Positions 2,205 through 64,000 of a DNA stretch of 64,000 bases are shown piece by piece. The position numbers and the translations under genes were made by a program. How positions within the stretch are numbered: position 1 is the first letter of the stretch; the number at the start of each line of letters is the position of its first letter. The notes beneath the pieces were generated by a model that worked only from the letters and a program-made list of their open reading frames with translations, ran no database searches and had not been told where the DNA came from. The stretch lies in assembly GCA_963829055.1 (NCBI GenBank), contig CAWHHI010000005.1, positions 224,001 to 288,000 on the forward strand. The letters are read 5' to 3'. Source of the stretch: an uncultured Gemmatimonadaceae bacterium (lineage in GTDB: Bacteria > Gemmatimonadota > Gemmatimonadetes > Gemmatimonadales > Gemmatimonadaceae).

Positions 2205-2414
2205 ATGCGTTCTCGTCGCATGACTGCTGCCAACAGGCGGAACTCGATCGCGGGCCGCTGGCGTCCGTGGCTCTGGGACAGTGTGCCCGACGACATGGCC
2301 GCGAATGATGCGCCGTCCGAGGCCCCGATCGACGGGCCTTCGCGCGAGCAGATTTCGCTCTGGGCCGACGACGCCGCGTTAGGTCCGAGCGGCCCGCAGC
2401 TGCGACTGGAGTAG
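2205..2414 (+). CDS. Small hypothetical protein (about 69 aa)
   Basis: MRSRRMTAANRRNSIAGRWRPWLWDSVP...; fills the gap divergent from groES and is followed by a perfect hairpin; no recognisable family. Confidence 0.35.
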   Translation: MRSRRMTAANRRNSIAGRWRPWLWDSVPDDMAANDAPSEAPIDGPSREQISLWADDAALGPSGPQLRLE

Positions 2415-2421
2415 CGCACGG

Positions 2422-2451
2422 CGTGGGACCGCGGCGCGCCGCGGTCCCACG
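2422..2451. terminator. Perfect 30-bp palindrome, probable bidirectional terminator
   Basis: CGTGGGACCGCGGCGCGCCGCGGTCCCACG between convergent gene ends (2414 and 2470). Confidence 0.65.
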
Positions 2452-2469
2452 TGTTGGTGATCCGTTCTC

Positions 2470-3870
2470 CTACTGCAGCGACGTCGTCGTTCCCTGCGCA
2501 CTCGCCAGCGCGACGCGGGCGAGGTGATACGACGTCCGCGCATCGATCACGAGATCGCGTGCCGAGTTGAGGGACATCGACGCGGTGATGACGTCGGCGT
2601 TGCCGCTCACGCCCTGACGGAACCGCTCGCGCGCCTGCGCGACTTCCTGCTCCGCCAGCACGAGCCGCGCCTGTGCCGCCGCGACTTCCTCGCGCGCCGA
2701 CGCGACGCTGATCATCGCCGATCTCACATCCGTCTCTACCTGACGCCGGGTGTCGAGCGCCTGGACCTCGGCCTCTCGCTGGCGCGCACGCTCCTCCGCC
2801 AGCCGCGACTCGGTGCGCAGTCCGTCGAAGATCGGGAGCGACACCTGCACGCCGTACGAATACGTGCCTAACAGGCGATCGGTCTCTTTTCCGTTCGAGC
2901 CGTGGTCCGCGTAGAGCGACACAGCAGGCAGACGCTCGGCGGCCGCCGCGCGAGCATGCATCCGCGCGCCCTCACTCTGAGTGCGCGCCGCCTTGAAGTC
3001 TGCGCGCGATGCGAGCGCCGTCCGAAGGATCTCATCCTCGCGCCCCATCGCGTCGTTCGGCGACGGTGCGCGGAGTGAATCGGCAATCACGAGTGGTGCG
3101 CCGTCGGCGAGCGCCAGCTCGTGACGCAGTTGCAGCACACCGCGGTCGCGGTCTCCTCGTGTCGCGATGAGGCGCGCGCGTGCGTCGGCGAGCTGCGACT
3201 GGGCGCGCGTCACGTCGAGCGAAATCCCGACGCCGGCCTTGAGCTGCTGCTGCGCGATATCGAGCAGCTCCGCGGCGAGCGACGAATCTGCCTCGCGCGC
3301 CGCGATGCGCGCCTCGGCGCGAAGTACACGCAGATACGCGTTCGCCCCACGCTCGGCCGCGGTCTCCGCCGCGGCATCGGCGCGGTAGTGCACGGCGTCA
3401 GCGTCGGTCGCCGTCGCGCGCCAGTTGAACACGGATGGGACGTTGATCAGCTGTTGTGTGATACGCGCGCGCACGTCGATGCTGCGCACGGGACCGCGCA
3501 CCTCACCGTCGGGATCGAGCGGCGAGCCCCCGGGCGCGCTCGGAAAGTCCATCCCGAGCGATGCGGTGTTGAAGCTGCGCGTGCCGACCTGCGCGCTCGT
3601 CGAGAGGTTGGGCAGGAGCTCGGAGCGGCGCTGCGCCACGCGAGCGTCTGCCTGCGATGACCGCTCGCGCGCGGCCGCGGTGGATGCGCTACGCTCGGAC
3701 GCGATCCGTGCGGCGCCCCCGAGGGTTAGCGCGGTGGGCGTGCCCTGCGCTTCGACTGTGGTCCACGTTGCGAGCAGGCAACCCGTCGCGACGAGTGCGA
3801 CGAAGCAGACACGCGCGCCAGTGCGTCGCGGCGACGATGTGTCGGAGACGGCAGATGCTATGGAGATCAT
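2470..3870 (-). CDS. TolC/OEP-family outer membrane efflux protein
   Basis: C-terminal part of ORF 2470..4845; likely start MISIASAVS at 3870; signal peptide ending VEAQ, two OEP repeats (ELLPNLS..., ERLPAVSL...GVQVSLPIFDG, RERFRQGVS). Confidence 0.88.
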   Translation of the reverse strand: MISIASAVSDTSSPRRTGARVCFVALVATGCLLATWTTVEAQGTPTALTLGGAARIASERSASTAAARERSSQADARVAQRRSELLPNLSTSAQVGTRSFNTASLGMDFPSAPGGSPLDPDGEVRGPVRSIDVRARITQQLINVPSVFNWRATATDADAVHYRADAAAETAAERGANAYLRVLRAEARIAAREADSSLAAELLDIAQQQLKAGVGISLDVTRAQSQLADARARLIATRGDRDRGVLQLRHELALADGAPLVIADSLRAPSPNDAMGREDEILRTALASRADFKAARTQSEGARMHARAAAAERLPAVSLYADHGSNGKETDRLLGTYSYGVQVSLPIFDGLRTESRLAEERARQREAEVQALDTRRQVETDVRSAMISVASAREEVAAAQARLVLAEQEVAQARERFRQGVSGNADVITASMSLNSARDLVIDARTSYHLARVALASAQGTTTSLQ

Positions 3871-4066: not shown

Positions 4067-4104
4067 CGCGGTTGGCGCGAGCGAGCGTTAGGCGCGCCAA
4101 TGAA

Positions 4105-4141
4105 AACGGGGGTCAGAGTCGAATCGACTCTGACCCCCGTT
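4105..4141. repeat. REP-like perfect hairpin, possible terminator after the ABC permease
   Basis: AACGGGGGTCAGAGTCGA-A-TCGACTCTGACCCCCGTT (18-bp arms). Confidence 0.6.
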
Positions 4142-4226
4142 CGCGCCTTTCGCAGTTCACTCAGCGTCACCCAGCCACCAGCACGACCACCCAGCAACCA
4201 GCTTGCGGTTTCGCCGTTATGGAGTG

Positions 4227-5381
4227 TCAGGCAATGACTCGTTTGAATCTCCTCGTGGCCATGAACAATGTCCCCACCGACATCACCGTCAGTGTCAGGT
4301 ACTGCGGCCAGAGCTCTGCGACGCCGATGCCCTTCAGGAACACGCCGCGTACGATCTCCAGGAAGTAGCGGATCGGGTTGATCACCGTCAGCCACTGGAA
4401 GACCTTCGGCATGCTCTCGATCGGCGACATGAACCCCGAGAGCATCACCGCCGGCAACGCTACCAGAATCAGCAGCATGAACGCTTCCTGCTGCGTCCTG
4501 GACACCGTCGAGATGAGCAGGCCTAACGCCAACGCGGCGAGAATGTACAGGAGCGCCGCCAGCAACAGTGCCAGGAACGAGCCCTTCATTGGCACGCCGA
4601 ACTGGAACACCGTGAGCCCCGTGTACAGCAGCAGATGGAACAGCCCGATCAGCAGGACCGGAATCGTCTTGCCTAACATGAGCTCCGTCGGCGTGATCGG
4701 GCTGACGAGCAACTGATCGAGCGTCCCGATCTCTCGCTCGCGCACGACCGCCATAGCCGTCAGCATGAGGCAGATCATCAGGATCTGAATGCCCATGATG
4801 GCCGGGACGTTGAAGAACTTGCTCTCGAGGCTCGGATTGAACCACGCCCGCGAGCGCAGCTCCACGCCGCCCACCATCCGAATGCCGACCATCTTCGCGC
4901 CGAATCGCCCCGCGATCTGACTCGAGTACGACTGCGCGACCGTCGCCTGACTCGCGTCGGATCCGTCGAACAGCGCCTGCACCTTCGCGCCGCGACCGCT
5001 CCGCATGTCCGCCGCGAAACCCGGCGGAATCGTCAACCCCATCTGCACGTCACCCTTCGCCAGCGCCGCGACGACATCCTCGGCCCGATCCGCCCGCTTC
5101 GTGACGACGAAGTACCCGGTGGAACCATACGCGTCGATCAGCGCACGCGACTCCGCCGTCTGGTCGTGATCGACGACCATCATCGAGACGTCCTTCACGT
5201 CCGTCGTTGCCGCGTAGCCGAGCATGATCATCTGCAGGACGGGAGAGACGAAGATGATCGGGCGCGACTTCGGATCGCGGACCACCTGTTTCAGCTCCTT
5301 CCGCACCATCTGCCGCAGCCGGCCCCACGAGAACCACCGGCGAGCCGGAGCGGGAGCCGGCTTTTCGTTGGCCCGCGTCAT
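4227..5381 (-). CDS. ABC-2 type transporter permease (YbhR-like)
   Basis: Start MTRANEK at 5381 overlaps the upstream stop; RKELKQVVRD, REREIGTLDQLLVSP, LSGFMSPIESMP, NPIRYF. Confidence 0.92.
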   Translation of the reverse strand: MTRANEKPAPAPARRWFSWGRLRQMVRKELKQVVRDPKSRPIIFVSPVLQMIMLGYAATTDVKDVSMMVVDHDQTAESRALIDAYGSTGYFVVTKRADRAEDVVAALAKGDVQMGLTIPPGFAADMRSGRGAKVQALFDGSDASQATVAQSYSSQIAGRFGAKMVGIRMVGGVELRSRAWFNPSLESKFFNVPAIMGIQILMICLMLTAMAVVREREIGTLDQLLVSPITPTELMLGKTIPVLLIGLFHLLLYTGLTVFQFGVPMKGSFLALLLAALLYILAALALGLLISTVSRTQQEAFMLLILVALPAVMLSGFMSPIESMPKVFQWLTVINPIRYFLEIVRGVFLKGIGVAELWPQYLTLTVMSVGTLFMATRRFKRVIA

Positions 5382-6592
5382 GTGAGCTCCTTTTTGAAAT
5401 TCCTGATGCTGAGAGCGACGGTACCCGCCGCGTAGATCGAGAGGCCGAGGATCGCGGGCCACAGCACGTCGAGACCGTTGCCCTTGAGGAACACGCCGCG
5501 CGTGAACGAGACGTAGTAGCGCGCCGGCACCACGCGCGAGATCCACTGCAGCGCGGTCGGCATGTTGGTCAGCGTGTACATGAAGCCGGAGAACAACAGC
5601 GCCGGCATGTACGTCGCGAAGATCGCCGCCTGGCTCGCCAGCAGCTGCGACTTGAGCGACGTCGACAACAGCGTCCCGAGGCCGAGCACGCCGATGAGGA
5701 ACACCGTCGTACCTAACGCGAACGTCAGCAGATTGCCGCGGAACGGCACCTCGAACACGAACACGCCGACGATCAGCGCCATCGCGACGTCGATCAGTCC
5801 GATCACGAGGTATGGAAGCAGCTTTCCGAGAATGACCTCGGTCCGGCTCACGGGCGTCGCGGCGAGCTGCTCCATCGTTCCGCGCTCCCACTCACGCGCC
5901 ACGGTCAGCGACGTCAGCATGGCCGAGATGATCGACATGATCACGGCGATGAGTCCGGGGACGATCATCGCGCGACTGTCGAGCGTCTCGTTGTACCACA
6001 CGCGGCCTTCCGCCTGCACGGGCGCCGGGGGCGCCTTGGCGACGACCAACGCGTTCTGCGAGTACGTCCGCGCGATCGCGTCGGCGTAGCCGCGCGCCAC
6101 GTTAGCTGTCTTCGCATCGCTGCCGTCGAGCAACAACTCCACCGGCGCCGCGCGACCGCCCTTGAGATCCACCGAGAATCGCTCGGGAATCACGATCACG
6201 ACCCGCACCTTGGCCAGGTCGATCAGCTGCTCCACATCTTCGGCCGTCGCCGGCGTGTACTTCACCGTGAAGTAGCTCGACCCCGCGAACGCCGCCGTGA
6301 GCGCTCGGCTTTCCGGCGTGTGATCGCGGTCCACGATCGCGGTGGTGATGTGCTGGACGTCGGTGGTGATGGCGTATCCGAACAGGATCAGCATGATGAG
6401 CGGCAGCACGAACGCGAGGCCGAGACTGCGCGCGTCGCGACGGAGCTGGATCGCTTCCTTGCGCGCGATCGCCCAGAGACGGGTGATGCTGAACGACTTC
6501 GGCGCGTGCGCTTGCATCGTTTCCCACTCCGCGGTTCTGCTCGCGGGGCGCGCGGGCACCGGGAAGTCGTCGGTGATCGATATCAATGTCAT
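5378..6592 (-). CDS. ABC-2 type transporter permease (YbhS-like)
   Basis: IARKEAIQLRRD, VAREWERGTMEQLAATP, PARYY; start at 6592 (ATGA overlap) or 6517. Confidence 0.92.
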   Translation of the reverse strand: MTLISITDDFPVPARPASRTAEWETMQAHAPKSFSITRLWAIARKEAIQLRRDARSLGLAFVLPLIMLILFGYAITTDVQHITTAIVDRDHTPESRALTAAFAGSSYFTVKYTPATAEDVEQLIDLAKVRVVIVIPERFSVDLKGGRAAPVELLLDGSDAKTANVARGYADAIARTYSQNALVVAKAPPAPVQAEGRVWYNETLDSRAMIVPGLIAVIMSIISAMLTSLTVAREWERGTMEQLAATPVSRTEVILGKLLPYLVIGLIDVAMALIVGVFVFEVPFRGNLLTFALGTTVFLIGVLGLGTLLSTSLKSQLLASQAAIFATYMPALLFSGFMYTLTNMPTALQWISRVVPARYYVSFTRGVFLKGNGLDVLWPAILGLSIYAAGTVALSIRNFKKELT

Positions 6593-7552
6593 GAGATCAT
6601 CGCTCCGCCCGCATGCCTGACGCGGGACACGAACACGTCCTCCAGTGAGGCAGGCACGATCTCGATCGATCGGCATCGGAGGCCCGCCGCTTCTATGCGT
6701 TCACGAATGACAGTTGTCGCCTGTGCTGCTTCCTTCACCACCACGCGTAGGGCTCGGCCGAACAGGCTCGCGTCGACGATGCCGTCGGCACCCGTCAGCG
6801 TCGCTAACGGCACGCGGGGCGTTCTCGGTCTCCACGCGCAGCACGACTTCCGTCATGCTGGCGCGCATCTCGCCCGGCGTACCTAACGCGATCAGCTTGC
6901 CGCGGTTCATGAGCGCGAGCCGGTCACAGTACTCGGCTTCTTCCATGTAGTGCGTGCTGACGAACACCGTCGTGCCACCGGTCGACAGCTCGCGGATGAC
7001 CTCCCAGAACGCGCGGCGGGCGAGCGGGTCCACGCCCGACGTCGGCTCGTCCAGGAACAGCACCGGCGGTTCGTGCAGAACGGCGCAGCCGAGTGCGAGT
7101 CGCTGCTTCCAGCCTAACGGGAGATCGCCAGTCGAGCGGTTGACGTGATCGGCGAGTCCCGACATCGCGAGGACCCACGCACGACGTCGCTGGAAGCGCT
7201 CGCCGGTGACCTCACGAAGGCCCGCGGCGAACTCGATGTTTTCATCGACCGTCAGGTCGTGGTACAGCGAGAACAACTGCGACATGTAGCCGATCGCGTG
7301 CTTGATGCGGTCGCCGTCCGTCGAGACGTCGAGCCCGACGACGTGGCCCGTGCCGGCGGTCGGACGCACCAGCCCGGTCAGCATCTTGATCGTCGTCGTC
7401 TTGCCGGCGCCGTTAGGCCCGAGGAAGCCGAAGACCTCGCCGCGCCCAACGGTGAACGTCACGGCATCCACGGCGGTGAAGGCGCCGTAGCGGCGCGTCA
7501 GGCCGTCCACAGCGACGGCCATGTTGTTCGAGTGAGTTGGCTCAGTTGGCAT
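6589..7552 (-). CDS. ABC transporter ATP-binding protein (YbhF-like), apparent +1 frameshift near 6806
   Basis: Walker A GPNGAGKT, signature-like LPLGWKQ, LFLDEPT, STHY; C-terminus continues in ORF 6589..6813 (SLEDVF). Confidence 0.88.
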
Positions 7553-8502
7553 TGTCGTCACCGCTGGACAGATCTATGAAGACATCCTCGAGCGACGGCT
7601 CGAGCGCCTGCATGCTGTGCACGGCGATGCCACCCCGCTCGAGTACGCCGCGAAGCTCGGTTTCCTGCCCCTGGGAGCCGAGGGTGAGGTGCAACGATTG
7701 GCCGAACATGGCCGCGCTGCGGACGCCCGACTGGGCGCGCATCAGGTCCATCGCCAGCCGTGGCGAGTCGGAATGGATCGCGATCGTGCGGCCGCGTAAG
7801 CGATCCTGCAGCGCAATCGGCGTGTCGAGCGCCGCGAGCTTCCCCTTGTTGAGCAGCGCCACGCGGTCGCAGCGCTCGGCCTCATCGAGATACGCCGTCG
7901 ACACGATCGCCGTCATGCCGTTGGCGACCATCTCGTGCACGATCAGCCACAGCTCGCGGCGCGAGATCGGGTCGACGCCGAACGTCGGCTCGTCCAGCAG
8001 CAGGACCTCCGGCTCGTGGATCAGCGCGCAGCATAACGAGAGCTTCTGCTTCATTCCCCCGGAGAGCGCGGACGCGAGTCGACCCTCGAACTGGCCGAGC
8101 TGCGAGAACGCGAACAGACGCTCGAGCCGCTTCGCGCGGGCCTTGCGCGGTACGCCGTACAGGTCCGCGTAGAACTCGAATGTTCTCGCGAACCGTGAGA
8201 TCGCCGTACAGGCCGAAGCGCTGCGACATGTAGGCGATGCGGTGCTTCACGCCTTCCGGATCCTTCACGACGCTGGTGCCCACGACCGTCGCATCGCCGC
8301 CCGTCGGACGGAGCACGCCGGCGAGGATGCGGAGCGTGGTCGTCTTGCCGGAACCGTCAGGCCCGACGATCCCGAACAGCTCCCCCGCCGCGACGTCGAA
8401 CGACAGCGCGTCGAGCGCCGTCAGATCGCCGAACGTTCGTGTGAGTCCCGTGACGGACACGGCAGGCGCTCCCGCACGTGTCGTCCGATCGTTGCGCTGC
8501 AT
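7542..8502 (-). CDS. ABC transporter ATP-binding protein (YbhF-like), apparent +1 frameshift near 8180
   Basis: GPDGSGKTT in ORF 7882..8502; LSGGMKQKL and LLLDEPTFGVDP in the frame of ORF 7542..8054. Confidence 0.88.
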
Positions 8503-8512
8503 GGTCGGATCC

Positions 8513-9527
8513 TCAGTGGCTCGACGCGACGACCGGCATCTCGAACCGCACGTCGGCCGGGAGCCCGGGCTTGAGATCGACGTTGGTGTCGCCAGCGACT
8601 CGGACGCGCACTTCGTACACGAGCTTCACGCGATCCTTCGTGGACTGCACGTTGCGCGGCGTGAACTCCGCGACACTCGCGATGTACGAGATCGAGCCCG
8701 TGTAATGCTTGTCGGGGTTGGCGTCGCCGGTGATGGAGGCGGGTTGGCCGAGCTTGAGACTGCCGACCTCGTCCCCGGGGATGTAGACGCGGACCCAGCG
8801 GTCGTCGAAGTTGCGGATCGTCAGCACGGGCGCGCCTGGAGACACGGCTTCGCCCGGTTCACGAATGCCTAACGGTGATCGTGCCCGAGAACGGCGCGGT
8901 GAGCTCGGTCTGCCTGAGCATTGCGTCAATGCGCTGGACGGTGGCCGTCGCCTGCGCGAGTGCGGCGCGCTGGGCGGCGATGCGCTCGCTGCGGGGGCCG
9001 ATCTCGAGGAGCTGCAGGTCTTCCTTCGCCTTGGCAACTTCGCCCTGCGATACGCTGAGCTCCGTGCGCTGGTGATCGAACGCCTGACGACTCACGAGCG
9101 ACTGCTCGGCCAGCGGCTCCAGGCGGGTGACGTCGCGCTGCGCCGCGTCGCGCTTCTCGGTCGCGACGGCGAGTACGGCGCGGGCGTGAGCGATCTCTTC
9201 ACGCCGAGCGCCCGCGAGCAACTCGGACAAACCTGCCTGCGCGGCGGCGACCTGTGCGCGCGTGATGTCCCGCTGTGCGATGAGCTCCGACTGTTCGAGG
9301 CTCGCGAGGCGGGTACCGGCGGCGACCTGGTCGCCTTCGCGCACCGTCAGGTGCTCGAGGCGGCCGGAAAGCTGAAAGCCGAGTTCAGCCTGTGTAGCCT
9401 CGACGGTGCCCGAGGCGAGGATGACGGCGCCGTCACGGTCGGCGGCCGAAGTGGTGCGGTATATGGCGAATGCGCCGATCGCGGAAAGAACGACGCCGCC
9501 AATGATGATGCGCGGTGTTTTCTGCAT
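8513..9527 (-). CDS. HlyD/YbhG-family membrane fusion protein, apparent +1 frameshift near 8865
   Basis: MQKTPRIII TM anchor, SGTVEA, V.EGD.V..G, coiled coil, APFSG; C-terminus AEFTPRNVQS...RVKLVY...LKPGLPADV in ORF 8513..9037. Confidence 0.88.
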
Positions 9528-9589
9528 GGGTGTGGTTCCGAAGAGAGTGCGTGCCTGACTGGGCGCTGGTGTCGTGCGCCGAGAAGGAA

Positions 9590-56847: not shown

Positions 56848-56992
56848 CGCGCGCTCCGCGGTGTTCTGGGTGGTAGGCTCCTTTCACTCTCGTGACGTGG
56901 AGAGGCCCAGACGCACGTTCGTTGCCGCCAGCTCGCGGGACTGCGGTGGTTCGAGCGTCTGGATTTGCGAGCCTGCACCGCAATCAGTGCAA

Positions 56993-57394
56993 TCAGTCCA
57001 GCAGGTCCGCCGGCACCTTGCCGCCGTTCTCCGCCAGCTTCTTCAGCACCTGCTTGTGCAGCCAGATGTTCATGGTGGCGGTGTCGCTCGTGTCGCCGGT
57101 GTACCCGAGCTCGTGTGCGAGCTCACGCCGCTGAGACAGGCTGCTGTCCATCCCGAGGAGCGTCATCAGGTCGACGATCGAGTAACGCCAGTTGACCTTG
57201 TGCGAGTACTTCGAGGCCAGTCCCTCGAGCACGGCCTCCACGTCGACGACGGGCGGCGCGGCGGCAGGGGCCACGGGCGCTGGCGCTGCTGGTTTATTCG
57301 CTGCTGCCGGCGCAGCGGCAGGTGTCGCCGTTGGCGCGGGAGCGTCGTGGCTCCGGCCCATGATCTTGGACATCAGCGTTCCGAAAATGCTCAT
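56993..57394 (-). CDS. DUF3597-family protein
   Basis: MSIFG..MSKI, Ala/Pro linker, VDV..VL, NWR.SIVDLM.LLGMDSSL..R.ELA.ELGY.GD..D.A.MNIWLHK.V..KLA.NGGKVP. Confidence 0.88.
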   Translation of the reverse strand: MSIFGTLMSKIMGRSHDAPAPTATPAAAPAAANKPAAPAPVAPAAAPPVVDVEAVLEGLASKYSHKVNWRYSIVDLMTLLGMDSSLSQRRELAHELGYTGDTSDTATMNIWLHKQVLKKLAENGGKVPADLLD

Positions 57395-57569
57395 ACTGCG
57401 CCTCGTGGTATGGAGTGCGTCGGGTTTGCCTGTGGCAACGTCGTGCGCGAACGGAGCGGACCCTGCTGAGACATCCTTGGGGGCCTAACGACGTTGCACG
57501 AAGGGGGCCATCCGACCACTCGGCCGCAACGGGCATCGAGGCGATGCAGGCACAACAGCAACTGCGCGT

Positions 57570-58841
57570 TCAGGGATAGAGCAGGTAGGGTTTCCGGCTC
57601 TCGCGGAACTCCGCGGCTTCGCGGTCCCACTCGTCCAGGAGGGCCGGCAGCGTGCCGCCTTCGATGGCGAGTCTCACCTTGTCGGAACCCGTTAGGCGGT
57701 CGATCGTCGTGGTCCACGCGAAGTCGCGCGGGTGCTGCTTCCGGATCTCGTCGATCAGGATCAGCGACGTGCGCACCGGCCGGTACGCCTCCTGGTCGGT
57801 GATCACGAAGTGGATGCCGGGGATCGTCTGGCCTTTGAACTTCGCTGCCGTCGGCGCCACCGCCATCGTGATCGCTTCGAAGCGGATGCCGGGGAGCCGC
57901 TTCTCGTTCATCGTCTTCGCGACTTCCGGCGCGTTGAGCCACGACGCCCCGATCTGCTCGAACGGGCGGTCCGTGCCTCTGCCCTCCGTGAGGGTGGTGC
58001 CTTCGAAGTAGACGGTCCCGGGATAACTCGTTAGGGCAGCCAGGGAGCGGAGATTCGGAGACGGGTTCACCCACGGCAGCCCCGTCTGATTGAGCCACTG
58101 CGAGCGCCGCCAGTTCGCCGCGCGGATCACGGTGAGGTCCGCGCCGATGCCGTACTTCTGATTGAACAGCGTGGCGAGCTCGCCCACCGTCATCCCGTGA
58201 CGCGCCGGGATCGGGTACATGCCGACGAACGACTTGAACTTCGGGTCGAGCAGCGCGCCCTCGACGATCTCTCCACCGATCGGATTCGGTCGGTCGAGCA
58301 CGACGAACGGAATCTTCTGTTTCGCGGCGGCCTGCATCGCCAGCGCCATCGTGGAGACGTAGGTCCACGTGCGTCCCCCGACCTCCTGGAGATCGTAGAT
58401 GATCGCGTCCACGTCCTTGAGCATCTCGGGCGTGGGACCGTGATCCTCCGATTTGTAGAGGGAGTAGACCGGGACGCCCGTCTTGGGATCCTTCTCATCT
58501 CCGATGGTCTCCCCGGCGGGCGCGTCGCCGCGGATGCCATGCTCCGCGGCCAGAAGGGCGACGAGCTTGAGGTCTTTGCGCTGCGCGATGAGATCGATAT
58601 CCAGCGTCTTCGACCGGTCGATCCCGCTGTTGTTCGTGATGAGGGCAACGCGCTTTCCGCGCAGCGCCGCAGGGATATCGGCGAGGAAGACCTCGATGCC
58701 GGGTCGCACGACCGCGCCTGCGTCTGGTGATGACGCGCGTGCGACCGACGCCGAGTCCGCGGCGGGGGCCGGCGTGCGCGCGCAGGAGGCGAGCAGCAAC
58801 AAGGCAGGAACAAGGGCGGCAGCAACGGGCGCTTTCATCAT
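57570..58841 (-). CDS. namZ: Exo-beta-N-acetylmuramidase NamZ (DUF1343) lipoprotein
   Basis: Lipobox LASC; V.LITN.SG, EHGIRG, PVYSLY, DLQEVG.R.WTY, LDRPNPIGG, RHGMTVGELA, PSPN, EGRGT.RPFE. Confidence 0.9.
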   Translation of the reverse strand: MMKAPVAAALVPALLLLASCARTPAPAADSASVARASSPDAGAVVRPGIEVFLADIPAALRGKRVALITNNSGIDRSKTLDIDLIAQRKDLKLVALLAAEHGIRGDAPAGETIGDEKDPKTGVPVYSLYKSEDHGPTPEMLKDVDAIIYDLQEVGGRTWTYVSTMALAMQAAAKQKIPFVVLDRPNPIGGEIVEGALLDPKFKSFVGMYPIPARHGMTVGELATLFNQKYGIGADLTVIRAANWRRSQWLNQTGLPWVNPSPNLRSLAALTSYPGTVYFEGTTLTEGRGTDRPFEQIGASWLNAPEVAKTMNEKRLPGIRFEAITMAVAPTAAKFKGQTIPGIHFVITDQEAYRPVRTSLILIDEIRKQHPRDFAWTTTIDRLTGSDKVRLAIEGGTLPALLDEWDREAAEFRESRKPYLLYP

Positions 58842-60235
58842 CTCTCTCGTGGTGATGAGGACAAGGGTGGGTACCACACAACGCTACCACCACGCATCAC
58901 GAACCGCACGCGCTCGATCGCCGCGAGATCAGCGAGCGGGTCGCCGTCGACGGCTACGAGGTCTGCATACGCCCCTGCTTTCACGACGCCGAGACGCGAG
59001 TCTCCGATGAGCCGGGCGGCATTGATCGTGGTACTCTGCAGCACGGCGGCCGGCTGAAGCCCACCCTTCGCATACGCGAACAGCATGTGCTTCGCGGCCG
59101 TGCCGCGAGGACCACCGACGTCGATGTACAGGTCCGAGCCGGCCGCGAGCGTCACGCCTGCGCGGGACGCCGCGCGGACCCGGTTGTACCCGGGGGCGAG
59201 GAGCGCTTCGATGTTGGCGTCCGATGGCCGCTCGGCCGCCGGCACGTGGGCGAGCTGGCGGTCCACAAGCCACCGGTCCCACTCGGTAGGAACGAGGATG
59301 ACGCCACGTCGTCGCATCAGCTCGAACGTGCTGTCTGCCGCACCCCGTCCATGCTCGATGGCATCGACCCCGGCCTCGACTGCACGGCGGATGGCGAGAT
59401 CGGTCGTGGCGTGCGCCGTCACGCGCACGCCCATGAGATGCGCTTCGTCAACGGCAGCACGCATCTCGGCGACGCTCAGATATGTCGCGTTAGGTGATCC
59501 GTTGGAGTAGAGCTTGATGACGTCAGCGCCGTGGATGACGTTCTCCCGTACCGCCTGTCGCGCGTCGTCGGGGCCGCGCACTACGCGGTACTCGTCGTCC
59601 ACCAGGGTGCGGTACCGCGCGTCGATCCCCTCCATCTGCCCGCCCTCTGGTGCGAGGCCCGGCCCGGAGACGTAGAGCCGAGGTCCCGGCAGGCTCCCCT
59701 CGTCGATCGCTCGTTTCAGCGCCACATCCGCGAACCGGCCGCTGTTGCCCAGGTCGCGCAGCGCGGTAAACCCGGCCTCGAGATAGCTGCGGGCGCGCGC
59801 CGCGCCGCGGAGCGCGCGGAGCACGTCGCCCTCGCGCACGAGCTCGCGCACCGCGGTCTGGCCTGACGTCTCGTTGCCGGGGTGCTCCATGAGGAGGTGG
59901 GTGTGCGCGTCGATGAACCCCGGCAGTACCGAGTACCGCGTGAGGTCGATGACGCGCGCGCCGGCGGGGACCGCCAGGTGCTCGCCGACGGCGGCAATCA
60001 GCCCGCCGCGCACCAGGATATCGCGAGCCGGGAGCAACACGCCGCGCTCGCTGTCGAAGAGACGCCCGGCGCGGATGACGACCGTGGAATCGGATGCCTG
60101 AGTGGCGGAGGCACGCGGAGCCTGCGCCGTGACCGGCGAAATCGCCGCGCACGCGAGGGCGAGTACGCCAGCGCGGCGCAATCGCCTGCAGGCCATCGCG
60201 CCGATCACGAAAACGCCTGCCAGGCTCAGTCGCAT
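58838..60235 (-). CDS. Metal-dependent amidohydrolase (Xaa-Pro dipeptidase-like), secreted
   Basis: PGFIDAHTH, GFT..RDLG, GADVIK, VTAHA, IEHG, GSD, ADLVAVDGDP; start uncertain (60235 or 60196). Confidence 0.9.
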   Translation of the reverse strand: MRLSLAGVFVIGAMACRRLRRAGVLALACAAISPVTAQAPRASATQASDSTVVIRAGRLFDSERGVLLPARDILVRGGLIAAVGEHLAVPAGARVIDLTRYSVLPGFIDAHTHLLMEHPGNETSGQTAVRELVREGDVLRALRGAARARSYLEAGFTALRDLGNSGRFADVALKRAIDEGSLPGPRLYVSGPGLAPEGGQMEGIDARYRTLVDDEYRVVRGPDDARQAVRENVIHGADVIKLYSNGSPNATYLSVAEMRAAVDEAHLMGVRVTAHATTDLAIRRAVEAGVDAIEHGRGAADSTFELMRRRGVILVPTEWDRWLVDRQLAHVPAAERPSDANIEALLAPGYNRVRAASRAGVTLAAGSDLYIDVGGPRGTAAKHMLFAYAKGGLQPAAVLQSTTINAARLIGDSRLGVVKAGAYADLVAVDGDPLADLAAIERVRFVMRGGSVVWYPPLSSSPRER

Positions 60236-60372
60236 GTTGTGAGCATCCGGTTGGTCGGACCACCCTCGCGGGCCACTACGTTGATACATATGTTCGTCCC
60301 GCGCAGCGGATATCGATCGCGGTGCGGCGATCGGTGGAGATGGTGGCGCTGCGAGCTCTGGGACCCAGGGCA

Positions 60373-61131
60373 ATGGATCCTAGCGCGCTATACCTCGAGC
60401 ATCTCGATCGGATCAACCGTATCGCGGAAGCACTCTGCACACGCCACGGAGTCCGTGGCGCTGATGCCGAGGATTTCACGTCCGAGGTCCGCCTGCGTTT
60501 GCTGCAGGACGACTACGCGGTCCTTCGAAAGTATCGCGGCGCCAGTTCGATGCCCACGTTTCTGACAGTGGTCATCGGAAACCTGTTCCGCGATTACCGC
60601 ATCAAGCGCTGGGGCAAATGGCGCCCGTCGGCCGAGGCGAAACGGCGTGGCGAGGCGGCGGTTCTCCTGGAGACGGCCGTCTATCGCGACGGCCGTTCGT
60701 TCGACGACGCGTGCCGCCTGCTTCAGGGCAACGGACGGGTCGACGTGGACGCCGGAGAGCTGCGTCGAATCATGGCCGAGCTGCCACGTCGCATCCGGGT
60801 TCGCCAGGACGATGACGCCAGCCTGGACTCCGTCGCCACCACCGAGGAGACCGATGACCTCGTGCTCGAGAACGAGCGCCGGGACCGGTTGCTCGCGGCC
60901 GAGAGTGCACTGAGGCGCGCGCTCACGCGTCTCGATCCCGAGGACCGGCTCATCATCACGATGCACTTCTTCGAAGGAATCTCCATCGCCGACATTGCCC
61001 GTGCGCTCGGGCTGCCGGCGAAGCCCTTGTATCCGCGGATCAAGCGACTGCTCGATGCACTGTCCGGCCAGCTCGTGAGTGAAGGAATAGGGCCTGACTA
61101 CCTCCAAGCCGTGAGAGGGGCACTCGTGTGA
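60373..61131 (+). CDS. ECF-type sigma factor with an inserted central segment
   Basis: LYLEHL..I.RI...DAEDF.SEV.L.L..DDY..LRK...G.WRPSA.A.R.G...L..EDR.I....F.EG.SIA.IAR.L. Confidence 0.85.
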   Translation: MDPSALYLEHLDRINRIAEALCTRHGVRGADAEDFTSEVRLRLLQDDYAVLRKYRGASSMPTFLTVVIGNLFRDYRIKRWGKWRPSAEAKRRGEAAVLLETAVYRDGRSFDDACRLLQGNGRVDVDAGELRRIMAELPRRIRVRQDDDASLDSVATTEETDDLVLENERRDRLLAAESALRRALTRLDPEDRLIITMHFFEGISIADIARALGLPAKPLYPRIKRLLDALSGQLVSEGIGPDYLQAVRGALV

Positions 61132-61240
61132 CGACGGAAATGTTCACTCGCGTCCGTCACTTACTTGTGGGTGCGTCTCACGTCTGTCTCGGGCAGTGCC
61201 CGCGTACGGCGGCGGCAGGCTGAAACACGTCAGGGAGCCA

Positions 61241-62167
61241 ATGCAATCGTCCGAAAACGATATCGATCTCGAGCTGATCGCGGCGCTCATTGACGGCCGT
61301 CTCGCAGGGGCGGAACGCCAGCGTGCGATCGAGCTGGTGAGCTCCTCCGAGGCCGCGCTCGAGATCTATACCGATGCGTTGCGCGTTCAGGCGGACCTTG
61401 CCCCGGAGAAAGTCGTCGCCCTCGTCCCTCGTCGTGAGGCCGGGACTCGCCGGTGGCTCGCAATCGCTCCGTTGGCCGCCGCGGCCGTATTGTTGATCGC
61501 GATCGTTCCGACAGTGAAGGCGCGCCGTGATCAGGCACTATTCTCTTCGACGGCGATGTCGATCGCGCAGCCAGTCATGGGGCGCGCGCAAGTGCCGGGA
61601 GCACTAGGTGCTGGCTGGGAAGAGCGGAACTGGTCGGTGACACGCGGCGCCGCCTCACGCCTGGTCGAGTCCACCGTCGCCTTCCGACTCGGCGTGCGCG
61701 TGGTCGACTTGCAGGTTGCACTGGTGAGAGCGGATACGGTTCCCGCGGTTCGCGTGACAGATGAAATCGTCGAGTCGCTGAAGATGGAGCCGCTTTCCGA
61801 GTCGGTGATGGCGGACTATTCCGCGCTTCGCACGCGGATCACGAGCACTGCGCCGCGAGAGCAGGTCGTCGCAAGTGCGTCCCGATCCGAGGAGGCGATG
61901 GATGCGTTCCTCGGCTCTCGCTGGTTCGACTTCGGGAAGTGGTTCGCCGCCGGGGAGCTCGCGGCTCGCACGCACTCTCCGGATTTCTTTGCGTCGAACA
62001 GAACGACACGATTTCTCGACTGGGCGATCGAGCGCGGAGAGCTCGCGCCGAGTGACGTCGCGTCGCTGCGCCAGATCAGGGGCCTCGCGGCGCAGGGCGT
62101 CTCTGACGGGGACTATGACACGATACAGCAGCTCTTCCTGACGCTCATTCAGCGTCACGGCGGGTAG
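61241..62167 (+). CDS. Putative anti-sigma factor (zf-HC2-like N-terminus, one TM, periplasmic domain)
   Basis: DLELIAALIDGRL...ER....V; TM RRWLAIAPLAAAAVLLIAIV; follows the ECF gene. Confidence 0.7.
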   Translation: MQSSENDIDLELIAALIDGRLAGAERQRAIELVSSSEAALEIYTDALRVQADLAPEKVVALVPRREAGTRRWLAIAPLAAAAVLLIAIVPTVKARRDQALFSSTAMSIAQPVMGRAQVPGALGAGWEERNWSVTRGAASRLVESTVAFRLGVRVVDLQVALVRADTVPAVRVTDEIVESLKMEPLSESVMADYSALRTRITSTAPREQVVASASRSEEAMDAFLGSRWFDFGKWFAAGELAARTHSPDFFASNRTTRFLDWAIERGELAPSDVASLRQIRGLAAQGVSDGDYDTIQQLFLTLIQRHGG

Positions 62168-62203
62168 GCAATTCGACTGCTGTAACCCACGCATGGAGGG
62201 TCC

Positions 62204-64000
62204 ATGCGGGTTGGAAGGTTCGATTCACGTGATCTTCGTGCTGGCCGCGCGCTGGTCGTGCTGCTCTCGACCGCCGCGATCGGTGGCATTGTCGCGTCCG
62301 CGTTCCTCGTACGGCCGACGCCGCGAGGCGGAAACGTCTGGCTGGGTCGCCTCGCCGACGCCGTCGGGGCTCATCGCGTGACGCGAGCCCGCCTCACGAG
62401 CCGATTCACGTACGCGGCCTGCGAGGCGGCGGTGCCTAACGACATGCTGATCGCCGGCCTCGTCTGCGCCGACGCCCGACCTGCCGCCTGGGTCACAGTC
62501 GGGCAAGCTGTCGACGCTCGCAACCGAGATGCGCTCGGCTGGAACAGCCGATTCGACGGACGCCGCCCGCCGGCATGCGTCCGGATCATGGCACATCGTG
62601 TGGGGCGACGCCGACGCGGCAATCCGCGAGTTGGGGGCTGTTGCTCGGATGGATTCGACCAACGCGAACGTACGGAGTGATCTGGCCGCCGCGTTTCTTC
62701 AACGGGCGCAACTCGAGCAGGACCCGCTGTCGATTCTGGACGCCTACGCCGCGATCGACGGCGCGCTCGCGCTCGATCCGCGGCTGCTCGAGGCGCGCTT
62801 CAACCGCGCGCTCGCGCTCGAGTGGCTGTATCTGCGCACTGACGCGACCCAAGCCTGGTTGGACTATCTGAAGCTGGACGCACGCTCGGCGTGGGCGGAC
62901 GAGGCGCGGGCACGATTGCAGGCGCTTCGAACACCGCTCCCGAGTTGGAGCGATGCGCAGGAGCGCCTGCGCCGCGCCGTGCGAACCGGGAATGACACGG
63001 TCGTCGACGAGCTCGTACGGCGGTTTCCTCGGCGTGCGCGCGACGATGTGTGGCGGACCATCACTGCCTGGGCTCACGTCCATCAGGATGGCGCGTCACA
63101 GCCCGACACGCTGCTGCATCGCGCCATGAGCGTCGCGCGATCGGTGGAATCGGTCACGGGGGACGCGCTGCCGGTCGACGTGGTGCGGCCAATCGAACTG
63201 GCGGCGGCGGTGGGCGACCGATCGCGTCTCGACGCGCTGGCGCGCGGTTTGATCGCCTACGAAAACGGACACGGGTTCGCCAACGCTTTCGCCCCCGACT
63301 CCGCCGCGGTCTGGTTAGGCATCGCGCGGAAAGCGTTCGCCGCGAGCGGCAGCCCGGGCGTGTACCTCGTCGCGTACGATTCCGCCATGATCCCCTACTC
63401 CCGCGCCGGGACACGTGGATACGACGAGGCACTCTCGCTGTTTCAAGCGATTCGCGAGACCACGCCCGTGAAGTATCACGTGATCCGTGGGCGTGCGGCT
63501 CGTACGGTGGGACTCATTCACGCCATACGGGCGGACTACGATTCGTCCATCACCGCTTATCAGGCGGCGGTCGTTGAAGGGCGGGGAACCGGAGAACCCG
63601 GCCTCGATCTCCGACCGCGAGGAATTCTCGCGTCCCTCTATGCGGAGATCCGCGGCGAAGACCAGGCCTGGGCAGAGTTGTATGCCGCGTTGCGATCGTT
63701 GCGGGACTACCCCGAGGAGTTGGGCGAAGCACAACGTCTGTTCGTCACCGCCGCTGACCTCAGCCGACGACGATCCCCTGCGGCGGCACTGCTGTTTCAG
63801 GCCGAAGCGGTCCGGCTTGCGCGCCTCGTCGATCGCTCCGGAACGATGGCAGTCACGGCGCTCGCGAAGCAGGCGGAGTTGTTCAGTGACAACGGGATGG
63901 CTGAGAAAGCCTTCGAGAGCGTGCATAACGCGCGTGCTGTCGCGGACAGCATCGTGAGCGACTCGACGCGAGCCCTCATGATCGCCGATGTGGACCTCGT
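62204..64000 (+). CDS. Large TPR-repeat protein, probably with a C-terminal CHAT (caspase-like) domain outside the window; apparent frameshift near 62500
   Basis: After the shift: SDLAAAFLQRA...ALALDP.L.EARFNRALALE.L.L...A..AW.DYL.LD..S.WADEAR.RL; frame stays open to the window end. Confidence 0.7.

What the first reader, a model, noticed from the sequence alone, without database searches (positions are those of the whole stretch)
2378..63319. Highly iterated non-palindromic motif GCCTAACG / CGTTAGGC, about once per kb on both strands
Seen: by eye I count about 70 copies of the core CCTAAC/GTTAGG (about 44 CCTAAC and 26 GTTAGG on the + strand), about 50 of them the exact octamer GCCTAACG or its complement. 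Example core starts: 4087, 4522, 7113, 7412, 8868, 11508, 14263, 15020, 16174, 19553, 22915, 22925, 23623, 26391, 29633, 30550, 33280, 33298, 38076, 45082, 45793, 48109, 52812, 54114, 55054, 57691, 62435. A rough i.i.d. estimate at 68% GC gives only 2-3 octamers in 64 kb over both strands. Established: such dispersed motifs exist as HIP1 (cyanobacteria), DNA uptake sequences (Neisseria, Pasteurellaceae), Chi and KOPS; I do not recognise this sequence as any of them. Inference: a lineage-specific DNA signal for uptake, recombination, modification or nucleoid-protein binding. The weak strand bias argues against a KOPS/Chi-type polar signal.
Basis: partly seen in the sequence, partly recalled or inferred. 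Interest (0 to 1): 0.85.

Follow-up and report, generated by a model that had tools for sequence, protein, structure and literature searches.

The report
Hyper-abundant genome word GCCTAACG
This soil bacterium has written the eight-letter DNA word GCCTAACG about 5,000 times through its genes and spacers against its own codon habits, much like the DNA-uptake tags of Neisseria and Haemophilus; the word is spelled like the recombination core of integron gene cassettes, and what reads it is still unknown.

Summary
The window holds 51 exact octamers against about 1 expected. The genome holds 5,004 (0.64 per kb), split evenly between strands.

The word is imposed at the DNA level:
- Genes hold 23 times more copies than after synonymous-codon shuffling.
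- 48% of all TTA codons lie inside it.
- It supplies 300 of 5,228 stop codons.
- It arises by point substitution in separate lineages of the genus.

It shows no replichore polarity. A word suppresses a second one within about 300 bp, whatever its orientation.

It is patchy in the family: about 42 of 201 genomes are rich. It is also hyper-abundant in unrelated Chthoniobacterales.

It equals the attC core of this order's integrons. Integrase presence does not track it, and no DNA methyltransferase of three families was found in this genus except in one genome.

Best reading: an uptake-sequence-like self tag with an unknown reader. Five candidate readers were tested and rejected.

This scan reported the same word earlier in other genomes. 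I found no paper describing it.

The parts
4086..62441 (.). 51 exact copies of GCCTAACG (34 on +, 17 on -), about 0.8 per kb
   Evidence: One search lists every position; 0.99 expected from shuffles.
2378..63319 (.). 70 copies of the 6-mer core CCTAAC (44 on +, 26 on -); 19 lie outside an exact octamer (variants such as ACCTAACG, GCCTAACA)
   Evidence: genome-wide variant tolerance.
23845..23852 (+). Word kept at the orthologous place in all five congeners aligned
   Evidence: pattern 111111.
33581..33588 (+). Word kept at the orthologous place in all five congeners aligned
   Evidence: pattern 111111.
30549..30556 (+). Word kept in all four congeners that align here
   Evidence: pattern 1?1111.
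23622..23629 (+). Word present only in this genome; congeners read GCCTCACG, GCTTCACG, GCTTGACC, GCGACACA, GCGACACG
   Evidence: (pattern 100000): lineage-specific, by point substitutions.
26390..26397 (-). Word present only in this genome
   Evidence: pattern 100000.
28708..28715 (-). Word present only in this genome; congeners read GCCGAACG, GCCGGACG and the like (common codons)
   Evidence: pattern 100000.
29632..29639 (-). Word present only in this genome
   Evidence: pattern 100000.
30768..30775 (+). Word present only in this genome; congeners read [AG]CCGAG[CG][AG], so at least two substitutions and a Ser-to-Asn change
   Evidence: pattern 1?0000.
34833..34840 (+). Word present only in this genome; three congeners read GCCTGACG, one GCTTGACG, one GGTTGACG
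   Evidence: GCCTGACG is itself 3-4 times its control in word-rich genomes.
22914..22931 (+). Two same-strand words 10 bp apart, a rare exception to the short-range avoidance
   Evidence: Genome-wide only 13 pairs lie under 25 bp apart, against 82.5 expected.
33279..33304 (+). Two same-strand words 18 bp apart, a second rare close pair

Best explanation
GCCTAACG is a genome-wide 'self word'. It is a short double-stranded DNA signal kept at about one copy per 1.5 kb by a process that acts on the DNA itself and overrides codon usage and, in places, protein sequence.

Shown:
- The word is placed wherever it costs least: rare-codon spellings of tolerated peptides, stop codons, and the 3' sides of genes.
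- It is gained by point substitution independently in sister lineages.
- Either orientation serves.
- One copy makes a second copy within about 300 bp nearly worthless.

Inferred: it works like the DNA uptake sequences of Neisseriaceae and Pasteurellaceae. An unidentified DNA-binding component, most simply part of the competence or recombination machinery, would prefer fragments that carry the word. Alleles with a word would then be taken up and recombined more often, and the word would spread by molecular drive and/or selection until each short fragment holds one.

The word is spelled exactly like the R box (core site) of this order's integron attC sites. The integron integrase is neither necessary nor sufficient for the genome-wide spread.
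For: DNA-level imposition:
- 2,987 copies in 5,238 CDS, against 129.5 after synonymous shuffling.
- 1,227 of 2,568 TTA codons lie in the word.
- 1,227 of 5,271 [SPTA]-L-G sites and 826 of 1,781 x-P-N-[VADEG] sites are spelled as the word; the P-N dipeptide is 1.4 times its expectation.
- 172 of 678 TAA stops and 128 of 1,360 TAG stops lie in the word.
- All four stop-free frames and non-coding DNA are used at similar density.

Orientation:
- Strand counts per 50-kb window fit a fair coin (chi-square 152 on 145 df), with no link to GC skew.
- Cumulative strand walks stay within random range on 7 contigs.

Local redundancy:
- Pair correlation is 0.14-0.25 below 100 bp, 0.5 at 150-200 bp and 1.0 beyond 500 bp, for same and opposite orientation alike.
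- Among 13,667 synonymous-compatible slots, the fill rate is 1-5% when another word lies within 100 bp and about 30% at 500-1,500 bp.
- Random choice among the slots gives 165 +/- 12 gaps under 100 bp, against 22 observed.

Turnover:
- 29 of 65 orthologous cells are conserved, against 17-20% for random 8-mers.
- Of 22 sites, 13 are specific to one of three lineages, and the other lineages hold common-codon spellings there.

Placement: convergent spacers hold 1.01 per kb, tandem 0.83 and divergent 0.45; the last gene decile is enriched.

Dialects: G014 and the Chthoniobacterales genome G041 use GCCTAACGA (29 of 44 copies; 82%). G041 tolerates different variants from G000.

Machinery encoded in G000: ComEC, DprA, an HHH_3 protein, a secretin and 5 pilin-like genes.

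Literature (passages read):
- Uptake sequences show the same sharp drop from perfect to singly mismatched copies, and even spacing is reported for them (cited there to Karlin et al.); many lie inside ORFs (65% in H. influenzae) (PMC1939737).
- Their spacing is tied to recombination tracts (PMC2397512).
Against: - No uptake or binding experiment exists, and no receptor was found.
- The one pilin-like candidate tested occurs in 37 of 41 relatives, and word-rich G014 matches it worse than word-poor G007 does.
- Competence genes do not discriminate: ComEC is in 40 of 41 relatives and in 10 of 14 control genomes.
- The redundancy length (about 200-300 bp here, under 100 bp in G041) is much shorter than the roughly 1.1-1.7 kb conversion tracts that match DUS spacing in Neisseria (PMC2397512).
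- Depletion in foreign DNA could not be shown cleanly. The word-free stretches hold ordinary genes and mostly sit at contig ends, so they may be assembly chimeras. No prophage markers were found, and repeats cover only 0.9% of the genome.
- In other genera (g58, g83) the first 18-19 listed copies all lie on one strand. That hints at strand-specific reading there.
- Uptake alone does not explain why two phyla chose the integron core as their word.
Confidence: 0.4

Rival explanations
1. Chromosome-structure signal. An abundant DNA-binding (nucleoid-associated or bridging) protein nucleates at the word, and selection keeps sites evenly sown. This is the reading Xu et al. gave HIP1.
For: - Counts per 10 kb are Poisson-like across the genome (mean 6.43, variance 6.49).
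- Orientation does not matter.
- The exclusion zone of 150-300 bp is the size of a protein-DNA footprint.
- Promoter-only spacers are poorest, at 0.45 per kb.
- The HIP1 abstract argues for selection and nucleoid structure (PMC5861425, abstract read).
Against: - Positions turn over fast between congeners: 13 of 22 sites are lineage-specific.
- The trait is dispensable and patchy, even inside one genus. In g59, G133 has 66 copies while three congeners have 3,479-4,141.
- No candidate protein tracks it. A SWIB/H1-like protein was seen but its distribution was not tested.
Confidence: 0.2
2. Integron-linked function. The words would be double-stranded R boxes read by the integron integrase or a relative, serving as genome-wide landing pads (attG/attI-like) or as decoys.
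For: - In word-poor relatives the few copies sit in cassette arrays: 90-136-bp hairpins GCCTAAC[A]...[C]GTTAGGC every 0.4-1.3 kb, some next to IntI.
- The match covers 8 of 8 letters.
- All 4 Chthoniobacterales genomes tested, and G045, carry IntI.
- R'' = RYYYAAC and R' = GTTRRRY; IntI1 binds the double-stranded R box of attI; attG sites exist in genomes (PMC12901181, passages read).
Against: - IntI over the cut-off occurs in 24 of 41 relatives, including many word-poor ones (G007, G008, G009, G011, G012, G016 and others). It was not found over the cut-off in word-rich G002, G004 and G006, and is in pieces in G014.
- Within genus g59, the poor G133 has two IntI genes over the cut-off while the rich G207 has none. 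G108, from the richest genus g9, also has none.
- The genome word does not tolerate the Y-degeneracy of RYYYAAC: GTCTAACG, GCTTAACG and GCCCAACG are not enriched, yet GCATAACG is enriched 7.7-fold.
- The words are singletons. The 98 inverted core pairs fold no better than random DNA (7 below the control's 5th percentile, against 4.9 expected).
- Nicking or insertion at sites inside genes gives no known positive drive.
Confidence: 0.1
3. Chi-like self marker. A helicase-nuclease (RecBCD, AddAB or AdnAB type) or a defence system would recognise the word and spare or repair DNA that carries it.
For: It is a non-palindromic octamer, abundant in own DNA. Incoming linear DNA that carries such a site would also enjoy a recombination advantage (inference).
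Against: - There is no co-orientation with replication.
- Redundancy is equal for same-strand and opposite-strand neighbours, whereas a one-strand reader predicts same-strand redundancy only.
- A 17- to 49-fold excess and 22% filling of compatible slots are far above what I recall for Chi (recalled, not computed here).
Confidence: 0.07
4. By-product of a site-autonomous mutational process: methylation-linked very-short-patch repair or another biased repair that converts near-matches into the word.
For: Some one-off variants appear below their order-2 Markov expectation (0.4-0.6 times), but that expectation is inflated by the word itself.
Against: - A neighbour within 300 bp suppresses filling 10- to 25-fold. 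A site-autonomous process would not do this.
- No C5 methyltransferase (PF00145) was found in G000 or its 6 congeners. PF01555 was found in none of the 7. PF02384 was found only in G001.
- Gains often need two substitutions and an amino-acid change.
Confidence: 0.03

Closest known systems
DNA uptake sequences: USS of Pasteurellaceae and DUS of Neisseriaceae (DUES)
   Same: - Short non-palindromic word at about 1 per kb on both strands.
- Written inside genes in the cheapest frames.
- Gained by point substitution.
- Sharp fall from perfect to mismatched copies.
- More evenly spaced than chance.
- Lineage-restricted, with dialects.
   Evidence: PMC1939737 and PMC2397512 (passages read); PMC2817400 (abstract in a search listing).
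   Different: - Preferential uptake, the defining property, is untested, and no receptor is known.
- There are no inverted pairs in terminators.
- The redundancy length is a few hundred bp, not kilobases.
- The word equals the integron core.
- The same word occurs in two phyla.
- Some genera show long same-strand runs.
HIP1 (GCGATCGC) of cyanobacteria
   Same: A hyper-abundant octamer, conserved and written into genes, whose function was unknown for a long time and is now argued to be nucleoid structure or a transformation/uptake signal (PMC5861425, PMC13756078 and bioRxiv 10.1101/2024.09.10.611283, abstracts read).
   Different: - HIP1 is a palindrome read by orphan methyltransferases.
- This word is asymmetric.
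- No methyltransferase of PF01555, PF02384 or PF00145 was found in G000. Among its 6 congeners they were found in 0, 1 and 0 genomes.
- D12-class (Dam-like) enzymes were not tested.
Integron recombination sites: attC R''/R' boxes, the attI R box, attG sites
   Same: The letters are the same. GCCTAAC / GTTAGGC fit RYYYAAC / GTTRRRY, and they are the actual arms of the attC sites of this order (PMC12901181, passages read).
   Different: - Genome words are single, unpaired and form no hairpin.
- They lie inside ordinary conserved genes.
- Their variant tolerance differs from the attC degeneracy.
- Integrase presence does not track them.
Chi and KOPS (polar chromosomal octamers)
   Same: Over-represented asymmetric 8-mers read on the chromosome.
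   Different: This genome shows no strand polarity. I recall the density and excess as far higher than for Chi or KOPS (recalled). Redundancy does not depend on orientation.

Membership tests
DNA uptake sequences (DUS/USS) | DNA carrying the word is taken up or transformed preferentially by competent cells | not testable with these tools
   Needs an uptake or transformation competition assay. No cultured strain was handled here.
DNA uptake sequences (DUS/USS) | Hundreds to thousands of copies, about 1 per kb, on both strands equally, far above expectation | tested here: met
   5,004 copies (2,457 and 2,547), 17-49 times low-order Markov expectations. Strand counts fit a fair coin.
DNA uptake sequences (DUS/USS) | Imposed on coding sequence against codon usage and gained by point substitution | tested here: met
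DNA uptake sequences (DUS/USS) | More even spacing than chance; a nearby copy is redundant | tested here: met
   Even spacing of USS is reported in PMC1939737 (passage citing Karlin et al.). The scale here is shorter than in Neisseria (PMC2397512).
DNA uptake sequences (DUS/USS) | Shared by related species, with dialects between lineages | tested here: met
   All 7 genomes of the genus carry it. About 42 of 201 family genomes are rich, by hand tally. The 9-mer dialect GCCTAACGA occurs in G014 and G041.
DNA uptake sequences (DUS/USS) | Under-represented in recently acquired DNA | tested here: inconclusive
   14 word-free 10-kb windows against 1.2 expected. They hold ordinary genes and are mostly at contig ends, and one pair has frameshifted genes at 70-73% GC, which suggests a chimera. 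No prophage markers were found. Repeats give no power.
DNA uptake sequences (DUS/USS) | Competence machinery and a specific receptor (ComP-type minor pilin in Neisseria) | tested here: inconclusive
   ComEC, DprA, an HHH_3 protein, a secretin and pilin-like genes are present, but these are ubiquitous. The pilin-like candidate does not track the word.
HIP1-like iterated palindromes | Palindromic word | tested here: not met
   GCCTAACG differs from its reverse complement CGTTAGGC.
HIP1-like iterated palindromes | Cognate orphan DNA methyltransferases | tested here: not met
   No PF01555, PF02384 or PF00145 match at E <= 1e-12 in G000 (86% complete). Among its 6 congeners: 0, 1 and 0 genomes. D12-class enzymes were not tested.
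Chi / KOPS polar octamers | Strand bias that switches with the replichore | tested here: not met
Integron attC sites | Pair of inverted cores (R''/R') bounding a 55-140-bp imperfect hairpin | tested here: not met
   Only 98 inverted core pairs lie 40-140 bp apart, against 7,103 cores. Their folding energy matches random DNA. About 6-10 are real attC-like sites, mostly near the integrase on contig C20.
Integron attC sites | Core letters RYYYAAC / GTTRRRY | tested here: met
   and PMC12901181 (passages read).
Integron attC sites | Co-occurrence with an integron integrase | tested here: not met
   IntI occurs in many word-poor genomes and was not found in several word-rich ones.

The most novel reading that the evidence does not exclude
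Cells would then preferentially harvest gene cassettes (attC-bearing DNA) from the soil gene pool. This would link natural transformation and integrons at the level of DNA recognition.
Probability: 0.12. Interest if true: 0.92.

Novelty: new variant of a known kind. Interest (0 to 1): 0.72.

Why it matters
Sequence-specific 'self tags' are firmly established in only two bacterial families. For HIP1, the third famous case, function stayed unknown for decades and is only beginning to be elucidated.

This is a fourth case, and it is unusually tractable:
- It is very sharp.
- It is present in two soil phyla.
- It has natural on/off contrasts, even inside one genus.
- It has a quantitative signature: one copy per few hundred bp is enough, and either orientation serves.
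- Its spelling equals the integron core.

Finding its reader would reveal one of three things: a new DNA-uptake specificity system in abundant, poorly studied soil bacteria; a new kind of chromosome-organising protein; or an unexpected tie between integrons and the rest of the genome.

In practice, the word is a marker for binning and for spotting chimeric contigs, and it would probably help in designing transforming DNA for these lineages.

Tried and rejected
Candidate readers, rejected because their distribution does not follow the word:
1. A 300-aa pilin-like protein (G000 C12:400497-401396) matches in 37 of 41 relatives. Word-rich G014 scores 94 bits, word-poor G007 139 bits.
2. Topoisomerase IB (PF01028) is found in 18 of 41. 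It is absent from G014 and present in word-poor G009, G011, G013, G017, G022, G033 and G037.
3. The radical-SAM 'DNA modification/repair' protein TIGR03916 passes its cut-off only in 5 of 7 genomes of the genus. It is in G041 and G044 but not in G014, G042, G043 or G045.
4. A 168-aa protein of unknown family, 71% identical between the phyla, matched in 0 of 5 test genomes.
5. The window ORF 19028-19639(-) of unknown family matches in 15 of 41, including word-poor G009, G029 and G033.

Cross-phylum screen. 1,794 crude genes from the first 2.0 Mb of G041 were compared with the G000 proteome. 577 matched, the best at 80% identity over 66 aa (an HTH_26 protein) and none higher. This gives no sign of a recently transferred reader in that half. 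The other half could not be fetched.

Dialect test. GCCTGACG is only 3-4 times its control in word-rich genomes, so it is a neighbour or fossil of the word and not a second hyper-abundant word.

Reads. All 24 listed runs are kept as contigs. Laying four of them showed 40 of 672 differences. None falls in the 19 words of that stretch, where 0.3 would be expected, so the test has no power. Molecule ends and modifications cannot be seen in contigs.

Mobile DNA:
- No HK97 capsid or Terminase_6N gene was found.
- Repeats cover 0.9% of the genome and hold 33 words against 44 expected.

Other ideas set aside:
- A peptide or RNA motif: all four frames, both gene strands and spacers are used.
- Terminator hairpins: there are no close inverted pairs.
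- A mobile element: only 8 letters are conserved and the flanks are nearly random.

Full report
**1.

The window holds 51 exact GCCTAACG (34 on +, 17 on -), against 0.99 expected from dinucleotide-preserving shuffles. It holds 70 copies of the CCTAAC core (44 and 26), against 5.67 expected.

The window is G000:C5:224001-288000, in a 7.78-Mb assembly of 20 contigs at 66.7% GC. Genome-wide there are 5,004 copies, 2,457 forward and 2,547 reverse. Every contig carries 0.48-0.80 per kb.

Markov expectations of order 0 to 3 are 297, 131, 102 and 258. The word is the top 8-mer against an order-3 model. At order 4 and above the expectation rises to 2,917-5,066. This happens only because the 5- to 7-mers that feed the model consist mostly of the word itself: 5,004 of 7,103 CCTAAC copies sit in the octamer.

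**2. The shape of the word**

The flanks are nearly random. Position -1 prefers C or T, and position +8 avoids G.

Only some one-off variants are enriched against an order-2 expectation:
- Position 1: G>A 17-fold, G>C 9-fold.
- Position 8: G>A 15-fold.
- Position 3: C>A 7.7-fold.
- Position 5: A>G 2-fold.

All other core changes are at or below expectation. The effective motif is R-C-[C/A]-T-A-A-C-R.

The sharp fall from perfect to mismatched copies is also what uptake sequences show. Their excess is 183 and 392 for perfect copies, against 2.0 and 4.8 for singly mismatched ones (PMC1939737, passages read).

**3. It is imposed on the DNA, not on proteins**

I used my own crude gene caller (7,666 calls covering 76.7% of the genome), so gene-based numbers are approximate. 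Words occur in all four stop-free frames:
- 1,326 as xCG-TTA-GGC.
- 938 as xxG-CCT-AAC-G.
- 607 as xGC-CTA-ACG.
- 447 as xxC-GTT-AGG-C.

Density is about equal in called genes and in uncalled DNA, at 0.63 and 0.70 per kb.

In 5,238 confident CDS there are 2,987 words. Shuffling synonymous codons within each gene gives 129.5, and shuffling codon order gives 48-59. Further measures:
- 1,227 of all 2,568 TTA codons lie inside the word.
- 23% of [SPTA]-L-G sites and 46% of x-P-N-[VADEG] sites are spelled as the word.
- The P-N dipeptide is 1.4 times its expectation, so protein sequence has yielded too.
- 172 of 678 TAA stops and 128 of 1,360 TAG stops are the TAA or TAG of the word.

Within genes the word is spread evenly, except for an excess in the last tenth. 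Convergent and tandem spacers hold 1.01 and 0.83 per kb, and divergent (promoter-only) spacers 0.45.

**4. No polarity, but strong local redundancy**

Strand counts per 50-kb window fit a fair coin (chi-square 152 on 145 df). They do not follow GC skew or gene orientation. Cumulative strand walks on seven contigs stay inside the random range.

Counts per 10 kb are Poisson-like, with mean 6.43 and variance 6.49. At short range, however, words avoid each other. The pair correlation is 0.14-0.25 below 100 bp, 0.38-0.50 at 100-200 bp, 0.75 at 200-300 bp, and 1.0 beyond 500 bp. This holds equally for same-strand and opposite-strand pairs.

The avoidance is not an effect of where words can fit. Among 13,667 positions in genes where synonymous changes alone could spell the word, the fraction filled depends on the distance to the nearest other word:

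| Distance to nearest other word | Fraction of slots filled |
|---|---|
| under 100 bp | 1-5% |
| 100-200 bp | 9-12% |
| 200-300 bp | 18% |
| 500-1,500 bp | about 30% |

Random choice among the same slots gives 165 +/- 12 gaps under 100 bp, against 22 observed.

A process that acts on each site alone, such as mutation bias or very-short-patch repair, does not predict this. A reader that needs one word per short stretch of double-stranded DNA, in either orientation, does.

There are no close inverted pairs of the terminator type.

**5. Evolution**

Five congeners are 76-80% identical to this genome across 20 kb of the window. Of 65 aligned cells, 29 keep the word, against 17-20% for random 8-mers.

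Of 22 sites where any of the six genomes has the word:
- 4 are shared by all genomes.
- 13 belong to only one of three lineages: G000 alone (6), G001/G002/G005 (6), G003/G004 (1).

At those sites the other lineages read common-codon spellings such as GCCGAACG, GCCGAGCG or GCCTGACG. Words therefore arise in place by one or two substitutions, in parallel, and are then kept better than average. The neighbour GCCTGACG is 3-4 times its control in the word-rich genomes.

**6. Who has it**

Among 41 relatives, all 7 genomes of the genus hold 2,501-5,112 copies, and G014, from another genus, holds 6,360. Most others hold 6-60, fewer than the reversed-word control of 100-430.

In an even sample of 201 family genomes (77 genera), I tallied the table by hand:
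- About 42 genomes at 5 times the control or more, in 16 genera.
- About 31 between 1 and 5 times.
- About 128 below the control.

One genus (g59) holds three rich genomes (3,479-4,141 copies) and one poor genome (G133, 66 copies). These tallies include the unpublished genomes G013, G060, G061 and G159. No conclusion rests on them.

Of the 80 rows listed, 23 are titled Gemmatimonadaceae, 27 are titled Chthoniobacterales or Verrucomicrobiae/-ia, and 30 are single hits in other taxa.

Four of those Chthoniobacterales genomes hold 2,136-5,186 copies, against controls of 247-357. G045, titled Gemmatimonadaceae, has the same counts as G214 of the family sample. This is my basis for calling the family Gemmatimonadaceae.

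In the first 2.0 Mb of the Chthoniobacterales genome G041:
- The word is 25 times its expectation.
- It is followed by A in 82% of copies, giving the 9-mer dialect GCCTAACGA. G014 shares this, in 29 of 44 copies.
- It tolerates partly different variants.
- Avoidance appears only below 100 bp.
- It is non-polar there too.

**7. The integron lead**

Earlier notes of this scan pointed out that the word is the integron core, and I tested this. In word-poor genomes the few copies form periodic same-strand clusters. These are arrays of 90-136-bp hairpins, GCCTAAC[A]...[C]GTTAGGC, every 0.4-1.3 kb, and some lie next to integrase genes. They are cassette arrays whose R''/R' boxes are the word. This agrees with the consensus RYYYAAC/GTTRRRY (PMC12901181, passages read).

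The integrase does not explain the spread:
- TIGR02249 passes its cut-off in 24 of 41 relatives, including many word-poor ones. It does not pass in word-rich G002, G004 and G006, and is in pieces in G014.
- It is present in all four Chthoniobacterales genomes and in G045.
- In genus g59 the poor G133 has two copies over the cut-off, while the rich G207 has none. G108, from the richest genus, also has none.

The word's variant tolerance also differs from the attC degeneracy. In G000 the 98 inverted core pairs fold no better than random DNA. Only about 6-10 look like attC sites, mostly at C20:173-208 kb beside the integrase at C20:208041-208958.

**8. The search for a reader**

Competence and pilus genes are present in G000: ComEC, DprA, an HHH_3 protein, a secretin and five pilin-like ORFs. 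They are ubiquitous, so they do not discriminate.

Five candidates failed the distribution test (details under Tried and rejected). Comparing half of G041 with G000 gave no protein above 80% identity, so that half shows no sign of a recent shared transfer.

G000 and its six congeners lack DNA methyltransferases of families PF01555 and PF00145 (none in any of the 7). PF02384 was found in only 1 of the 7, whereas word-poor relatives often have several. This weakens a HIP1-like, methylation-dependent reading. D12-class enzymes were not tested.

**9. What stays unexplained**

- The 14 word-free 10-kb windows (1.2 expected) hold ordinary metabolic and housekeeping genes. Both ends of contig C6 are at 70-73% GC with genes broken by frameshifts. 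Most of the others are at contig ends. They look like chimeric or foreign pieces rather than islands, so I could not show the classical 'absent from acquired DNA' criterion.
- In genera g58 and g83 the first 18-19 listed hits lie on one strand. In a 12-kb sample of G132 all large ORFs that I take as genes are on that strand, and the four coding words share one frame, xGC-CTA-ACG. This suggests a sense-strand bias that G000 does not have.

**10. Verdict**

This is a real, DNA-level, orientation-blind, locally saturating genome word. By its statistics it works like an uptake sequence (confidence 0.4). A nucleoid-binding role (0.2) and an integron-linked role (0.1) remain open.

It cannot be filed as a member of the DUS/USS family, because preferential uptake is untested. 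It fails the membership tests for HIP1, Chi/KOPS and attC.

I found no description of it in print. The word's letters give only primer-type hits in the 20 papers listed of 478. No paper combines Gemmatimonad* with 'uptake sequence'. Two further searches gave none among the 10 papers each listed. The same scan has reported the word before in other genomes.

Noticed in passing
G000 contig C6:10,000-55,000 and C6:600,000-623,330 (outside the window): Both ends of contig C6 are at 70-73% GC, against 66.7% for the genome. They hold no word and no core. Their housekeeping genes (chorismate synthase, trp genes, thiolase, sigma-54 activator, permeases) are split into adjacent ORFs as if frameshifted. 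They are probably pieces of another organism joined on by the assembler.
   Followed up: partly
G000 C11:1-40,000; C19:1-10,000 (55% GC); C4:457-471 kb; C4:805-821 kb; C12:298-310 kb: Further word-free stretches of 10-40 kb hold ordinary metabolic genes (isocitrate lyase, glutamine synthetase, IMP dehydrogenase, ThyX, TldD/PmbA and others). No phage or mobile genes were seen. Their origin is unclear: foreign DNA, a chimera, or chance.
   Followed up: partly
G000 genome-wide: Other over-represented words overlap into CTCGGAATGACA (for example CTCGGAAT, 909 against 279 under order 5). TTCCTAAGG-type words occur 41-45 times against 1-2 expected. This is probably a small dispersed repeat family, unrelated to the word.
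   Followed up: no
G000 C20:173,500-209,000: The genome's own integron. The integrase is at C20:208041-208958(-) and scores 265.7 bits, just at the family cut-off. attC-like hairpins lie at about 173524, 183881, 192695, 197206, 205100 and 207858, spaced 3-10 kb apart on the 3' side of the integrase gene. This is an unusual layout.
   Followed up: partly
Genus g1 (G000-G006): Seven large genomes (5.7-7.8 Mb) show no PF01555 and no PF00145 DNA methyltransferase. PF02384 appears only in G001. Smaller word-poor relatives often carry one to six.
   Followed up: partly
G074:C2, G132:C1, G174:C1 (genus g58), G188:C1 (g83), G045:C1:62-81 kb: Runs of 18-21 consecutive words on one strand, unlike G000, G014 and G041. 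In G132:C1:1-12,000 the large ORFs I take as genes are all on that strand, and all four coding words are in the frame xGC-CTA-ACG.
   Followed up: partly
Genus g59: G133 against G075, G175, G207: One genus holds a genome with 66 copies (below its control of 190) and three with 3,479-4,141 copies.
   Followed up: partly
G000 C11:689293-692594(-) and G041 C1:770736-773426(+): A radical-SAM 'DNA modification/repair' gene (TIGR03916; 558 and 586 bits) sits next to its usual partner in both phyla, at 65% and 47% identity. In G000 the partner's C-terminal part looks DUF72-like by eye (no scan was run). Its function is unknown, and it does not track the word.
   Followed up: yes
window 19028-19639 (-): A 203-aa ORF with no Pfam or NCBIfam family is 60-63% identical to proteins of Chthoniobacterales (G041, G043). 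It is found in 15 of 41 relatives.
   Followed up: yes
G000 C11:56171-56539(-): A 122-aa protein has a lysine/alanine-rich, histone-H1-like head and a tail 63% identical to a G041 protein that scans as a SWIB/MDM2 domain. It may be a chromatin-type protein. Its distribution was not tested.
   Followed up: no
G000 C11:82807-83377, C3:78403-78962, C5:150864-151418, C17:120861-121433, C4:771786-772364: A repeat of about 570 bp at 72-75% GC occurs in 4-5 copies. Each copy holds one core and no exact word.
   Followed up: no
G000 C4:822304-825294 and C16:606731-609723; C12:102885-104445 and C16:610123-611679: Two duplicated segments of about 3.0 kb and 1.56 kb hold 0 words and 0 cores. By size they are probably 23S and 16S rRNA genes, but this was not checked with Rfam.
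   Followed up: no
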